From assembly GCA_951406725.2 (NCBI GenBank), contig OX597822.1:47058001-47122000 (forward strand): 64,000 bases of DNA, in the 5' to 3' direction. Below the pieces are notes generated by a model. It was not told the DNA's origin. It ran no database searches and saw nothing but the letters and a program-made list of their open reading frames with translations. The stretch is from Octopus vulgaris. Its lineage: Eukaryota. Below, piece after piece: positions 26,933 through 58,986 of this stretch (position 1 is the stretch's first letter; the number at the start of each line of letters is the position of its first letter). Made by a program: the position numbers and the translations under genes.

Positions 26933-27717
26933 ATAACAATTTAACAAATAAAACACATGCATACATACATACGTATATGTACATACCTACATCTATATGT
27001 ATATATACATGCATATATATATATATATATATATATATATATATATATATATATATATATATATATATATATGAGTACAGGACACCACAAATAAACGTAG
27101 AACACAACGAGAAACGAAACTATAAAAACAAACAAGGAAACGGACTTTTTTTAACAACGAAAAACAGAGTACAAGACAAACAATACAAGGAATATTCCCC
27201 TTCATCAGCTGCCCCTGGTTCGACTCAATGCGTGTTTCAAAGGTAAGGGCAGAACACGATCCGGCCGAAGCAGTCCTTCCTGCAAAATGAATTAAATAAA
27301 ATTCTTTTGCAGAGGAGCAAAAAAGGAAAGAAAAAAAGAACAGGACGTAAAAGCAATACAAATAAAAATACAGTACACATAAAGAATAAAAACGGGACAA
27401 GGAAACCAACATTGAGGGCTGTTTTTAAGCCTAGACGGTGGAAAAATTCGTTTGAAACACGCATTGAGTCGAACCAGGGGGCAGCTGATGAAGGGGAATG
27501 TTCATTGTATTGTTTGTCTTGTACTCTGTTTTTTCGTTGTTAAAAAAGTCCGTTTCTTTGTTTGTTCTTATGGTTTCGTTTCTCGTTGTGTTCTACGTTT
27601 ATTTGTGGTGTCCAGTACTCATATATATATATATATATGCATGTATATATACATAGAGATGTAGGTTGTACATATACATATGTATGTATGCATATGTTTT
27701 ATTTGTTAAATTGTTAT
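26933..27717. mobile_element. Palindromic non-coding (PLE-like) element, arms 26933-27241 / 27451-27717
   Basis: ~270-310-bp inverted arms embedded in (TA)n; homologous to the direct repeats at 27893-29137. Confidence 0.75.
27195..27258 (-). ncRNA. Putative hammerhead ribozyme with non-canonical strand order
   Basis: CGTGT-T-CTGCCCTT-a-CCTTT-GAA-ACACG-14nt-AGGGGCAG-CTGATGA-AGGGG; stem III 5 bp, stem I 8 bp. Confidence 0.7.
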
Positions 27718-28038
27718 TATATATATATATGTGTGTGGCTGTGTAGTAAGTAGCTTGCTAACCAGCCACATGGTTCCGGGTTCAGTCCCACTGCGTGGCA
27801 TCTTGGGCAAGTGTCTTCTGCTATAGCCCCGGGCCGACCAATGCCTTGTGAGTGGATTTGATAGACGGAAACTGAAAGAAGCCTGTCGCATATATTTTTC
27901 CACTGTTTATATATATATTTTTTACTGTTTATATGTTTGTACTGTCGTTACCGTCTTTCTTTTTTTACCCCTCTGCGAAAAGATCTCAGAATTTTAATTG
28001 ATTTGCTTTTCGCAGGAAGGAAGTTTTCTTCGAAGTAT

Positions 28039-28101
28039 ACGTCTCGCTTTTATCCTTCGAAACGTTTAGTAGATGAAACCTTAGCGACTGAAGAAGGGGA
28101 T
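28039..28101 (+). ncRNA. Putative hammerhead ribozyme with non-canonical strand order (copy 2a)
   Basis: ACGT-C-TCGCT-ttt-ATCCTTC-GAA-ACGT-17nt-AGCGA-CTGAAGA-AGGGGAT; GUC cleavage triplet. Confidence 0.72.
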
Positions 28102-28876
28102 TTTTCGTTGTGCTTATTGTCCTGTATCTCTTTTTTTGCTTGTCTTGTTCCTTGGTTTGTGTCTATGTTTTTCGTCTCTCTATGTGTTCGACGTCTTTTT
28201 GGTGTCCTGTACACATATATGCGTGTATATGTACATGTAGAGGTAGGTACGTACATATATGTTTATATATATGCATATGTTCTATTTTATTAACATATTA
28301 TACGACTAAACGCACGCACCCTATTAAGTAAGATTGTTCTGTTTATCAAGTTAGCCTTGATATTAACTCTCACGCGACTCTGCATCTTTCTTTCTTTCTC
28401 TCCCATTCCCTTTTTCGTCTTTTTTCCCTCACTTAACTTATCTCTTCCTCTCTCTCTCCCCCTCACCGTTCTTCATGGTCTCCTCGCACCATTCCCCTTC
28501 TTCTCTCTCTTCCTCTTGCTCCTCCTCCCCCATTCCCGTCGTCCATCTGCGACGATACTTCCGTCGTAACTGCTATCCTGTCTTTTCTCGCCCGCCTTCT
28601 AAGGCTACTGGTCGACATTCTTTCTCTCTCGTCGTCCACTATAATCCAGCGTTTGCAATACTTTTTTCGTCTGGCGTTAACAGCCCTTCTTATCTTGTTC
28701 TCCTTGTCCTGTCTCTCACTGTTATATATTTATTTTTCCACTGTTTATATATATATTTTTTACTGTTTATATGTTTGTACTGTCGTTACCGTCTTTCTTT
28801 TTTTACCCCTCTGCGAAAAGATCTCAGAATTTTAATTGATTTGCTTTTCGCAGGAAGGAAGTTTTCTTCGAAGTAT

Positions 28877-28939
28877 ACGTCTCGCTTTTATCCTTCGAAA
28901 CGTTTAGTAGATGAAACCTTAGCGACTGAAGAAGGGGAT
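28877..28939 (+). ncRNA. Putative hammerhead ribozyme with non-canonical strand order (copy 2b)
   Basis: Identical to 28039-28101. Confidence 0.72.
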
Positions 28940-29485
28940 TTTTCGTTGTGCTTATTGTCCTGTATCTCTTTTTTTTGCTTGTCTTGTTCCTTGGTTTGTG
29001 TCTATGTTTTTCGTCTCTCTATGTGTTCGACGTCTTTTTGGTGTCCTGTACACATATATGCGTGTATATGTACATGTAGAGGTAGGTACGTACATATATG
29101 TTTATATATATGCATATGTTCTATTTTATTAACATATATATATATATATATATATATATATTTATGTGTGTGTGTGTGTGTGTGTGTGTGTGTGTGTGTG
29201 TGTGTATGTGTATGTGTTTGTTTGTCTGTGTTTGTCCCCCTAGCATTGCTTGACAACCGATGCTGGTGTGTTTACGTCCCCGTAACTTAGCGGTTCGGCA
29301 AAAGAGAACGATAAAATAAGTACTGGGCTTACAAAGAATAAGTCCTGGGGTCAATTTGCTCGACTAAATGCGGTGCTCCAGCATGGCCACAGTCAAAGGA
29401 CTGAAACAAGTAAAAGAGTATATATATATATATATATATATATATATATATATATAAGCAAAAACAAGTAGCGTATCATATACAA

Positions 29486-29962
29486 CTAGCGGGACCCGTG
29501 AATATTTCACGGAATTAATGGTAACTTTATTGGGTCATTTCTGAAAACTTCATGCAAAATACCTGAAAACCTACCCTGTGTTTTGTCAGTATCAAAGGAT
29601 AGTCGCTCATCTACTAATCATTGAAAAATGAAGGAAATTGGAATACGATGATTATTTAAGACACTTTTATATATACATTTTATGCGCAATTTTATAGGCT
29701 TAATACATAACACAATTCCTTTTTGCCTTACCATCTTTTTCTCTCTCCTTTTTCTTTCGCTTTTCGCCTTTCCCTTCAACTAATCAGGCGTTACAGACGG
29801 GCTAAGTAACTGAAAAAAAATTAGCTAAAAAACAAAAAAAATTACACATTTCACTCACTACCACCTTCACCTCCCATCCCATCTCATCCCCGATTCAGCT
29901 AATCACGTGGAAGCATTACGGACGGGCGAAGTAACGGAGTGACAAGCAGAATTACTATAAGA
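29486..29962 (-). mobile_element. Non-autonomous Helitron
   Basis: Minus 3' end CCGTGAAATATTCACGG hairpin then CTAG|T; candidate TC 5' end at ~29962. Confidence 0.55.
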
Positions 29963-30129
29963 TGATATTTCGGTAATAATCTTCTGGTAAAGTGGAAATG
30001 AAACAATTGTAGAAAAATGTGTTTGCTCAATCCATATATTCTGCGGCTATTCACGGACATTCGGATCTATTTTCAGTAATACGATCAGTTTTCGTTGTAA
30101 AACTAACTGGTAGCCGGTACCCATAAACA

Positions 30130-56952: not shown

Positions 56953-57375
56953 AGGCGCAGACGTGGTTGTGTGCCAAGAAGCTCGCTTACCAAGTACATG
57001 GTTCAGGGTTCAGTCCCATATGCGTGGCACCTTGGGCTAGTATCTTCTATAGCCTCTGGTCAACCAAAACCTTGTGAGTGGATTTGTTAGACGGAAACTG
57101 CGTGTGTGTGTGTGTGTGTGTGTGTGTGTGTGTGTGTGTGTGTGTGTGTGTGTGTGTGTGTGTGTGTCTGCGAGTTTGGGTCTGTCCCCCACCACCGCTT
57201 GACAATTGGTGGTGGTGTGTTTACCTCCCCGTAACTTAGCGGTTCGCCGAAAGTGACCGATAGAGTAAGTACCAGAATTAAATATCAAAATACTAGGGAG
57301 GATTCATTCGACAAAAAAATTCTTCAAGGCAGTGCCCCAGCATGGCCGCATTCTAATGACTGAAGCAAGTCAAAG
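56953..57375 (+). mobile_element. Family A SINE (diverged)
   Basis: Head, (TG)n, gtaacttagcggttcg and tail. Confidence 0.8.
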
Positions 57376-57622
57376 ATGTATGTATATCTATATCTGTATC
57401 TATCTATCTATCTATCTATCTATCTATCTATCTATCTATCTATCTATTATCTATCTATCTATCTATCTGTATATATATATATATATATATATATATTTGT
57501 ATGTTTGTATGTATGTATGTATATATATATATATATATATATATATATATATATACAAAATGGGACAAGAACGCAAAACATCCAGACAAACGATACAAAG
57601 AAAACTAGGACGGGTCATTCGA

Positions 57623-57688
57623 AGCCCTCTATCCTCATTCAAGCACCAGATTATCCTCGCAATTTCGGCTGATTATTCTTGAGGTTGC
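57623..57688 (-). ncRNA. Decayed copy of the 43964-44029 hammerhead-like motif
   Basis: GCAAC-C-TCAAGA..AGCC-GAA-ATTGC..GCTTGA-ATGAGGA-tagag-GGCT; two core substitutions. Confidence 0.55.
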
Positions 57689-58359
57689 TCCAATCTGGTC
57701 AGCCCCAAGGAAAAACTAAGCTAAGAGCATTAGATTCCTTGGAAGTAAGCAGCGAATGCATACAAAAACAAGGATGGAAAAAACAAAGTTACACAAATAT
57801 AAATACAATAATATATATATATATATATATATATATATATATATATATATATATATATATATATATATATATATATATATACATACATACATACATACAC
57901 ATACATATGCATAAACATATATATATATATACATACATAGATGCACACGTGTATGTGTGTGTGTCTTCTATTCTAGACTTATATATATTTCTATACATGC
58001 ATATAATTGCACGTTCTCACAATTATTCATGATTGTGAGAATGTGCATGCATATGTTTACCTGTGCGTCCATGTGTTCGTGTGCATGCCTGAACGTGTGT
58101 TTATGTGTACGTGTGTTTGTTAGACAGCGAACTCCGTGCGTGTGTGCACTTAAGGAAATGTAATCGTACATTGGACTGTATGTATGTGTACGTGAATGCG
58201 CTTGTGTGTATGCGTGGTACACGAGTAACCACACGTGTTCATTCGAGCATGTTGGCAGTGAGCTGTTGTTTCGCCCCAGATCAGCCCGGATCAAGCACTG
58301 CAATGATGACAGGCATTCCAACCGTGAAAACACTGATGCTTTTTTATGAAAACTAAGAA

Positions 58360-58670
58360 GTCCATCTATGCATCTCTCTAACCATCCACCCAACCATCCA
58401 TGACCCCTGTCTATTATTCCTGGAAGGGACGCTGCGGGTAGAGGCCTCAAGTACTTCCTACATAGGATCCTATCTTAAGTAACCGTCTTTACATTCCCCG
58501 GCTGGATTACTAAGCGTGACCAACGGAATCTATGGTTATTATCCAGCCATTTCATTCTTGGCCTTTACTCTTAGGTCTCCTGCCCGTTGGCTCGGCTTGA
58601 AGAATCCGTTTTGCGATTCTTTCCGGTGACATTCTAATCACAAGTCCGTTGAACGGGGAGATGTGTTCTC
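58360..58670 (-). pseudogene. RTE-clade LINE 3' end
   Basis: GLVIRMSPERIAKRILQAEPTGRRP plus a (GGAT)n-like tail. Confidence 0.65.
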
Positions 58671-58925
58671 TCAATATATATTCCAAGAAAGTTAGAGGTT
58701 GTGAATCCAACCAACTAAGGGATAATATATATCCAATATACTGCTGGTAGAATACCCAATTATTAATACATAAGTGTTTTTTTATTGCATTGTAATTAAA
58801 TTTCCGAGTGTACTAAATGGGTGAAGGTAAAGATATATTATATATATATATATATGTGTGTGTGTCACCAACTGTGCAAACAACATGAAATACGTAAAAG
58901 CAGGACAAGTAAACACGGAGAAGGG

Positions 58926-58986
58926 ACCCTTCATCAGTTGTCGACTGTCTACCTGCTCCACATTTCGAGCATTCAACGACAATGTG
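58926..58986 (-). ncRNA. Degenerate hammerhead-like motif with non-canonical strand order (copy 3)
   Basis: CACAT-T-GTCG..GCTC-GAA-ATGTG-15nt-CGACAA-CTGATGA-A-GGGT; flanks resemble the 27-29 kb elements. Confidence 0.55.

What the first reader, a model, noticed from the sequence alone, without database searches (positions are those of the whole stretch)
27195..58986. Family of hammerhead-like ribozymes with a reversed, non-circularly-permuted strand order
Established: a hammerhead is built from three strands, A=[I'-CUGANGA-II], B=[II'-GAAA-III] and C=[III'-UH-I]. Natural types I, II and III are the circular permutations ABC, BCA and CAB, and hammerheads are common in Penelope-like elements and retrozymes. 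Seen: six loci (27195-27258 -, 28039-28101 +, 28877-28939 +, 43964-44029 +, 57623-57688 -, 58926-58986 -) all read C-B-A in about 61-66 nt. Stem sequences differ but stay paired: stem III CGTGT/ACACG, ACGT/ACGT, GCAAT/ATTGC, CACAT/ATGTG; stem I CTGCCC/GGGCAG, TCGCT/AGCGA, TCAAGA/TCTTGA, GTCG/CGAC. The I-to-II linker is short (1-6 nt) and the III-to-I linker is 14-17 nt. Inference: this fits the 3D fold, where the distal ends of stems I and II are adjacent and stem III points away. The motif could be a pseudoknotted monomeric hammerhead topology that type I/II/III descriptors would miss. I know of no natural example, but cannot check the literature.
Basis: partly seen in the sequence, partly recalled or inferred. 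Interest (0 to 1): 0.93.

Follow-up and report, generated by a model that had tools for sequence, protein, structure and literature searches.

The report
Four-strand hammerhead ribozyme in octopus retroelements
Thousands of jumping-gene copies in this octopus-like genome carry a self-cutting-RNA motif whose parts come in a scrambled order and whose core is completed by an extra upstream strand, an arrangement I did not find described, and it may be the missing ribozyme of a retroelement group thought to lack one.

Summary
The reversed box order is real and far above chance: 7,428 exact core-pattern matches genome-wide against 290 for the reversed control. The order is not new; it is Eckert 2023's validated type SGC, reported there only from metatranscriptomes.

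In 9 of 9 subfamily representatives, stem II comes from a fourth, upstream strand beginning at G10.1, and the strand after CUGANGA pairs elsewhere. The core is thus opened between A9 and G10.1.

The motif lies in the terminal repeats of four non-autonomous Penelope-like families and one Naiad family. By eye, published ctenophore, coral and octopus Naiad consensi, said to lack canonical hammerheads, end in the same fold.

In family F1, 5' ends pile up just past the predicted cut (19 vs 2, p=2e-4); two other samples do not. Short linkers suggest cleavage needs two copies (inferred). Cleavage is untested; three of six window copies carry core mutations. The scan earlier noted permuted hammerheads (one type CSG, one beside a Penelope-like element) in other genomes.

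The parts
27197..27317 (-). Locus 1, family F1, four-strand motif. Closing-helix 5' strand 27317-27313; hairpin 27312-27280; upstream stem II strand (G10.1) 27279-27275; stem III' 27258-27254; predicted cut 27253|27252; stem I 27252-27247; GAAA 27238-27235; CUGAUGA 27208-27202; closing-helix 3' strand 27201-27197. C11.1>U in this copy.
   Evidence: positions read from the ruler; fold; family alignment
26928..27455 (-). 5'-truncated F1 element (terminal repeat plus end of body) ending in a TA microsatellite
27451..27730 (+). Inverted 5'-truncated copy of the F1 terminal repeat, typical of Penelope-like insertions. It begins about 11 nt 3' of the predicted cut, so it has the G and C blocks but no site block.
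27968..28099 (+). Locus 2, family F2, intact four-strand motif. G10.1 28016, U16.1 28042, predicted cut 28043|28044 (GUC), G12 28059, C3 28088; hairpin 27973-28015; closing helix 27968-27972 with 28095-28099.
28806..28937 (+). Locus 3, second tandem copy of F2, intact. G10.1 28854, U16.1 28880, predicted cut 28881|28882, G12 28897, C3 28926.
27890..29138 (+). F2 partial tandem (about 1.5 units of 838 nt, no coding ORF): terminal repeat - body - terminal repeat
43893..44036 (+). Locus 4, family F4, intact four-strand motif. 14-bp closing helix 43893-43906 with 44023-44036; G10.1 43948; U16.1 43968; predicted cut 43969|43970 (AUC); G12 43986; C3 44014. Element 43823-44117.
57616..57758 (-). Locus 5, older F4 copy (element 57547-57813) with C3>A and U16.1>C; probably dead
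58925..59047 (-). Locus 6, family F6 (element 58878-59144). Family site AUA with predicted cut 58983|58982; G12 58966; C3 58937. This copy has U16.1>C and G10.1>A; probably dead.
26786..26889 (-). F4 fragment holding only the upstream closing strand and hairpin

Best explanation
A hammerhead-class self-cleaving RNA in the terminal repeat (pLTR) of Naiad-type Penelope-like retroelements and of non-autonomous units of about 0.8 kb.

Order 5'-3': X1 - hairpin - X2 - Int' - [III' UH I] - [II' GAAA III] - Int - [I' CUGANGA] - Y1. X2 begins with G10.1 and forms stem II with II'. Y1 pairs with X1, so two extra helices sit between A9 and G10.1. Int extends stem III. This is the S>G>C ring of the non-circular types (SGC/CSG/GCS) opened at a new point inside block C.

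SHOWN: sequence, order, pairing, covariation, copy number, element anatomy.

INFERRED: cleavage 3' of NUH, supported indirectly by copy 5' ends in F1 and in a mixed sample.

MORE WEAKLY INFERRED: each copy folds as a long arm (Int plus III) with the cleavage site in its apical loop and the catalytic strand at its base. The loop of one copy then docks by stems I and II onto the junction of a second copy. The RNA would be cut mainly where two repeats are co-transcribed, releasing unit-length RNA for reverse transcription (possibly after circularisation), while lone copies inside host transcripts are spared.
For: - Core invariant while stems vary across 11 aligned copies.
- In 9 representatives, stems II and I are 5.0/5 Watson-Crick within a family against 2.4/5 across families; G10.1-C11.1 in 9/9; sites GUU, GUC, GUA, AUC, AUA.
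- Chance of a 5-mer stem II complement upstream is 0.009-0.08 per family, and there are five different 5-mers.
- On MAFFT alignment A1 the four helices pair in 85.9% of cells, 12 of 18 pairs change on both sides, 0/500 shuffles reach this, and slid controls give 43-56%.
- F1 copies picked only by sequence 3' of the core: 19 5' ends at 0..+21 from the cut against 2 at -22..-1 (p=2.2e-4) and 3 at +22..+43, from 60 copies. Mixed sample: 12 of 30 at -2..+12 against 1 at -17..-3.
- Partial tandems, 5' inversions and TA flanks.
- A fifth family of 405 exact matches follows an RT-like ORF end and matches the published Naiad_Obim/Ovul 3' ends by eye.
- Linkers II>Int 1-6 nt and Int>I' 0-5 nt.
- Precedent for two-copy Penelope hammerheads (PMC4209133 passages).
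Against: - No cleavage assay exists for any copy.
- No pile-up of 5' ends in F2 (3 vs 3 among 80 copies) or in the Naiad-type sample (4 of 30 near the cut, more upstream).
- F1 ends peak at +6..+11, not 0, and part of that could be TA microhomology.
- Pseudoknot-free folding gives alternative folds and never the whole structure.
- Stems were chosen by maximising pairing, which inflates within-family scores; the subfamilies are related; A1 misaligns 2 Naiad rows and shifts F4 and F6.
- Strand swaps between helices of this kind have, to my knowledge, never been tested for activity.
- The driver of the young F2 family (98-100% identity) was not found.
- One Penelope hammerhead was inactive without protein and dispensable in vitro (PMC11167929 passages).
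Confidence: 0.6

Rival explanations
1. The same four-strand hammerhead, but active within one molecule: the loop or bulge between stem III and Int acts as a hinge that folds Int back alongside stems II/III, perhaps with help from the element's protein.
For: All pairings apply equally. In F6 and F2-type copies the II+core+III stack and the Int+loop stack are of similar length (about 12 bp). Eckert's SGC/CSG RNAs cleave co-transcriptionally even though a few join Int and III directly.
Against: The III-Int junction is a small, loop-E-like internal loop in the octopus families. By eye it is a 0x3 to 0x7 bulge with unequal arm lengths in cnidarian Naiads. A 180-degree turn needs more slack (inference from A-form geometry, 2.8 A per bp, recalled).
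Confidence: 0.2
2. One reading: the strand 3' of CUGANGA makes a G-U-rich stem II after a 1-nt bulge, and the upstream module is only an off-switch that sequesters both stem II strands.
For: A 4-bp G-C/G-U helix can be drawn in F1, F2 and F6. Validated SGC-1 has a 1-nt insertion at this place (oligos, read by eye).
Against: That helix is 1.7/5 Watson-Crick, no better within than across families; it has no covariation above shuffles; and it cannot form in F4, F7 or the Naiad-type family. An off-switch would not need the invariant G10.1-C11.1 pair.
Confidence: 0.1
3. A hammerhead-derived but non-cleaving structure kept as a binding or priming signal for the element's reverse transcriptase. The 5'-end pile-up would then come from microhomology with TA targets or from RT stalling.
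For: No pile-up in 2 of 4 samples. F1 junctions cluster at a TA-containing linker. The PAc hammerhead is not needed for insertion in vitro.
Against: All catalytic nucleotides and a valid NUH are kept across five families with different stems. The AT-rich hairpin upstream of the cut holds only 2 F1 junctions in -70..-23.
Confidence: 0.1

Closest known systems
Type-SGC hammerhead (HRIMA-1 and variants), Eckert et al. 2023, PMC10085705 (read parts 1-6 of 8 of the text; supplement parts 1 and 8 and searched passages)
   Same: Order site - GAAA - CUGANGA; three mutually crossing core stems; short I-to-II' linker; a helix joining the distal ends of stems I and II.
   Different: There block C is uninterrupted (the authors assume at most 1-2 inserted nt); here stem II's 5' strand lies upstream and two helices sit between A9 and G10.1. 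[quoted passage not shown] Their descriptor needs CUGAUGAG or CUGAUGAUG and a linker of at most 15 nt, which the four window families do not meet.
Type-CSG hammerhead (same paper; 2 unique sequences, soil metagenome DNA)
   Same: Same cyclic order of blocks; stem II continues through the interaction helix into III'.
   Different: Opened between the G and C blocks rather than between A9 and G10.1. By eye, three Naiad passages in supplement parts 13 and 15 of PMC8557442 are of this type.
Naiad Penelope-like elements, Craig et al. 2021, PMC8557442 (passages; supplement parts 1 and 24 and searched passages)
   Same: pLTRs, tandem and inverted insertions, (TA)n preference, splice-donor-like site at the pLTR end. 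The octopus Naiad consensi end in this very motif.
   Different: Reported to 'lack canonical hammerhead motifs', with some 'HHR_core' or 'HHR_half_core' cases left unexplained, and to be long inactive in cephalopods. The four window families have no ORF, and F2 is young.
Minimal type-I hammerheads of Penelope pLTRs and non-LTR retrozymes (PMC4209133 passages; bioRxiv 10.64898/2026.07.22.740005 parts 1-3 of 5; Lunse 2017 not held)
   Same: pLTR location, non-autonomous tandem units under 1 kb, proposed two-copy activation.
   Different: Circular order C-G-S with dimerisation through a short palindromic stem III; here non-circular order, long stem III, and docking proposed through stems I and II.
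Hammerheads with an extra nucleotide or extra helices in the core (de la Pena and Flores 2001, title seen in reference lists only; Weinberg et al. 2015, not held, cited in PMC13725137 for 'additional helices')
   Same: The A9/G10.1 step tolerates insertion (position recalled, not read).
   Different: Those are, as far as I recall, circularly ordered. I could not check where the 2015 variants place their extra helix, so partial precedent for that one feature is open.
Varkud satellite ribozyme (recalled analogy)
   Same: A substrate stem-loop docks by kissing onto a catalytic junction, in trans or as a swapped dimer.
   Different: Unrelated core.

Membership tests
Hammerhead ribozyme class | Core nucleotides C3 U4 G5 A6 G8 A9, G12 A13 A14 A15.1, U16.1 H17 | tested here: met
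   Invariant columns; NUH and boxes in 9/9 representatives; broken in window copies 5 and 6
Hammerhead ribozyme class | Stems I, II, III flanking the core, with covariation and a G10.1-C11.1 pair | tested here: met
   (stem II from the upstream strand)
Hammerhead ribozyme class | A9 joined to stem II directly or through 1-2 nt | tested here: not met
   A9 runs into a separate closing helix; G10.1 lies about 70-80 nt upstream
Hammerhead ribozyme class | Mg2+-dependent site-specific cleavage 3' of NUH | not testable with these tools
   Only indirect: 5'-end pile-up in 2 of 4 samples
Hammerhead types I/II/III | Circular block order CGS, GSC or SCG | tested here: not met
   no Rfam hammerhead match
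Type-SGC hammerhead (Eckert 2023) | Block order S-G-C | tested here: met
Type-SGC hammerhead (Eckert 2023) | Uninterrupted block C supplying stem II | tested here: not met
Type-SGC hammerhead (Eckert 2023) | Helix joining the distal ends of stems I and II | tested here: met
   Int 4.3/5 Watson-Crick within vs 1.5/5 across families; the register was chosen by best pairing
Penelope-like element (Naiad clade) | pLTR partial tandems, inverted 5'-truncated copies, (TA)n insertion | tested here: met
Penelope-like element (Naiad clade) | ORF with N-terminal GIY-YIG and C-terminal RT | tested here: inconclusive
   Absent from the four window families. The fifth family follows a broken RT-like ORF end (no meaningful Pfam match) that matches Naiad_Obim/Ovul DNA by eye
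Penelope-like element (Naiad clade) | Intron spanning the pLTR/body boundary | tested here: inconclusive
   Donor-like GTAAG after the repeat in all four families; splicing not shown
Non-LTR retrozyme | Non-coding tandem units under 1 kb, each with a ribozyme | tested here: met
   Units about 770-840 nt; up to four head-to-tail F2 copies spaced 832-838 nt
Non-LTR retrozyme | Type I hammerhead | tested here: not met
Non-LTR retrozyme | Circular RNA intermediate | not testable with these tools
   Only assembled contigs were available

The most novel reading that the evidence does not exclude
Naiad retroelements across animals (ctenophores, cnidarians, molluscs, nematodes) do carry hammerheads, in non-circular order. 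The main form is an undescribed four-strand ribozyme whose core is opened between A9 and G10.1 and which cuts only when two repeats dock loop-to-junction, a two-copy gate that has spread to well over 7,000 sites in an octopus genome and left its cut site recorded in the 5' ends of genomic copies.
Probability: 0.45. Interest if true: 0.95.

Novelty: new variant of a known kind. Interest (0 to 1): 0.87.

Why it matters
1. It breaks the three-block assumption under which six hammerhead permutations were thought to be the full set, and gives a new opening point for RNA design.
2. It moves non-circular RNA permutations from rare metatranscriptome circles into animal chromosomes at high copy number.
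3. It offers a concrete explanation for the unexplained 'HHR_core' and 'half_core' notes on Naiads, and questions the conclusion that Naiads thrive without a ribozyme.
4. The 5'-end pile-up makes a long-open question testable: whether Penelope hammerheads cut the RNA that is actually reverse-transcribed.
5. Thousands of copies in a cephalopod genome could cut host transcripts unless gated.

Tried and rejected
- Rfam scans: only microsatellite-driven miRNA-model and other weak matches.
- A canonical downstream site block: no type I/II/III reading at the window loci; family flanks show TA repeats instead.
- 40 unselected 10-kb stretches: 0 of 40 hold a strict hit, though F4 and F6 fragments occur in 4 of 40. 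The window is richer than average.
- An autonomous ORF next to F1, F2, F4 or F6: none within 1.5 kb of 120 copies.
- Extending two Naiad-type loci upstream reached other insertions.
- Pfam on the two ORF remnants: nothing meaningful. Searching the paper's supplement for their peptides found nothing, possibly because long protein lines are cut.
- Sequencing runs: no RNA holder listed. Four contig-only runs gave no usable ends or splice joints.
- One search used mis-set columns and is disregarded.
- No scan outside this genome returned data, so wider distribution rests on reading a supplement by eye.
- Rows dropped before the junction counts: F1 8 of 34 flagged (six poly-T alignment artefacts at -72..-81, two subfamily divergences at -41); F2 17 of 30 flagged (a subfamily indel at -83..-90), and one F2 junction re-called by eye from -20 to -4. 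All dropped rows lie outside the tested windows.
- Literature: 10 searches found no report of SGC-order hammerheads in animals or of a core opened at A9/G10.1. Weinberg 2015 and Lunse 2017 were not held, and subscription papers and bioRxiv supplements are outside the library.

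
Full report
OBSERVATION. All six loci read site block, GAAA block, CUGANGA block in that order. They belong to four repeat families: F1 (locus 1), F2 (loci 2-3, a tandem pair 838 nt apart), F4 (loci 4-5) and F6 (locus 6). 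The window lies in a 2.8-Gb genome of 227 contigs. First-look candidates number 2,602, 1,992, 3,645 and 3,584 for F1, F2, F4 and F6; these are not copy numbers. An exact pattern joining the GAAA and CUGANGA boxes has 7,428 matches against 290 when read backwards. Family majorities restore the core where the window copies are mutated. Loci 1, 5 and 6 carry core changes; loci 2, 3 and 4 are intact.

THE ORDER IS KNOWN. Eckert et al. 2023 (PMC10085705) named it type SGC and showed cleavage with disrupt/rescue of four helices. They found it only in metatranscriptomes, and assumed the three blocks cannot be interrupted. Their descriptor would miss the four window families.

THE FOLD IS NOT. A descriptor that requires only stems I and III, then asks where the strand 5' of GAAA pairs best, finds a perfect 5-6 bp partner upstream in 109 of 137 hits. 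The best Watson-Crick partner downstream is at most 4 bp. In nine subfamily representatives the upstream strand X2 always starts with G opposite C11.1 and, wherever the upstream region is intact, lies at the 3' foot of a hairpin. Stem II takes five different sequences, all 5/5 Watson-Crick, against 2.4/5 across families. The strand after A9 pairs instead with a strand 5' of that hairpin (5-6 bp in F1, F2 and F6, 14 bp in F4), and an extra helix, Int, continues stem III. On an 11-row MAFFT alignment this structure beats 500 of 500 shuffles on pairing and covariation, and beats all slid controls, despite misaligned rows. A strict version finds 107 hits in 1.04 Mb of held loci and none in reversed or shuffled sequence; it matches 61 of 80 F2, 16 of 60 F1, 26 of 30 F4, 7 of 30 F6 and 3 of 30 Naiad-type loci. 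Caveat: registers were picked by best pairing and the families are related. Topologically this is the S>G>C ring opened between A9 and G10.1.

THE HOST ELEMENT. Copies end in TA microsatellites, are 5'-truncated, often have an inverted 5' copy, and form partial tandems of about 770-840 nt units without an ORF. That is Penelope-like anatomy (PMC8557442) and fits retrozymes as non-autonomous Penelope derivatives (bioRxiv 10.64898/2026.07.22.740005; type I only). Craig et al. 2021 state that Naiads lack canonical hammerheads but list unexplained core and half-core cases, including Naiad_Ovul. The Naiad_Obim and Naiad_Ovul consensi end in the motif. This genome holds 405 exact matches of that version, some downstream of the RT-like ORF end seen in those consensi.

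WIDER DISTRIBUTION (by eye only). From searched passages of that supplement, the same four-strand fold appears in nine passages: two octopus, three Acropora, and four assigned by file order to a ctenophore, a hydrozoan and cubozoans. The ctenophore one has only a 2-bp stem I. Type CSG appears in three passages. Other passages (parts 17, 25, 26) showed a GAAA box with no such arrangement. I did not read the ends of all 54 consensi and could not run them through tools.

DOES IT CUT? If reverse transcriptase runs off a cleaved 5' end, copies should start just 3' of the cut. Among the first 60 of 426 F1 copies picked by sequence 3' of the core, 19 start at 0..+21, 2 at -22..-1 and 3 at +22..+43 (p=2.2e-4 and 8.6e-4). 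In the first 30 of 7,428 pattern matches, 12 start at -2..+12 and 1 at -17..-3; that sample cannot show ends further 3'. Against this, the first 80 of 707 F2 copies give 3 vs 3, and 30 of 405 Naiad-type copies show no excess. F1 ends peak at +6..+11, where a TA microhomology exists, and some copies are tandem or inverted partners and so not independent. The evidence is suggestive, not proof. Frangieh et al. found no reads ending at a Penelope hammerhead site and no need for cleavage in vitro.

MECHANISM (inferred). Without stems I and II the motif is nested: a closing helix, a hairpin, and an arm (Int plus III) whose apical loop holds the site. Stems I and II join that loop to strands at the arm's base through 0-6 nt linkers. 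By A-form geometry (recalled) that is hard in one molecule and easy between two, for example the two repeats of a tandem transcript. This parallels the dimer logic proposed for Penelope type-I hammerheads and Eckert's remark that some SGC RNAs join distant ends directly. A hinged monomer remains possible. Folding without pseudoknots gives other structures and cannot decide.

NOVELTY. It works like a hammerhead and shares SGC order, but fails the uninterrupted-block-C test, so I do not file it as type SGC proper. Ten literature searches found no report of this fold or of SGC order in animals. Weinberg 2015, cited for hammerheads with additional helices, could not be read and may be partial precedent for the insertion site. 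Earlier notes of this scan report a type-CSG hammerhead (e1-7368731) and a permuted hammerhead in a Penelope-like tail (e1-7354453) in other genomes; I did not check them. Verdict: new variant of a known kind, interest 0.87.

Noticed in passing
L121 (G000:C1:20000001-20010000), about 3080-4520 + and two copies on -: Tandem array of 353-359 nt units, each with a canonical type-I hammerhead: an ordinary retrozyme. Further type-I candidates in L124, L139, L145, L160, L048 and L099.
   Followed up: no
PMC8557442 supplement, parts 13 and 15: Three Naiad passages (nematode by file order, not confirmed) read by eye as type-CSG hammerheads with long interaction helices. This may explain where Eckert's soil-DNA CSG examples come from.
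   Followed up: partly
L066, L173, L177, L178 and relatives: Between stem III and Int, several families keep an AGUA/GAA arrangement resembling a loop-E / sarcin-ricin motif (resemblance recalled, not tested).
   Followed up: partly
window 27890-29138; F2 is very young (98-100% identity; 707 exact 32-mer matches), although cephalopod Naiads are described as long dead. The active driver is unidentified.
   Followed up: partly
window about 28327-28333; L005, L006, L028, L054, L078: A splice-donor-like GTAAG follows the terminal repeat in all four families, then a pyrimidine-rich tract. F1 also has branch-point- and acceptor-like sites.
   Followed up: partly
L178, L172: A subfamily with a G-C to C-G double change in stem II relative to F1/F2; both strands are seen in L178, while L172 is truncated upstream.
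   Followed up: yes
window 39766-42600 (-): About 2.8 kb of short tandem repeat giving long open frames of low complexity.
   Followed up: no
window 34427-34750 (-): 107-aa open frame resembling the C-terminal end of a non-LTR retrotransposon protein (resemblance recalled).
   Followed up: no
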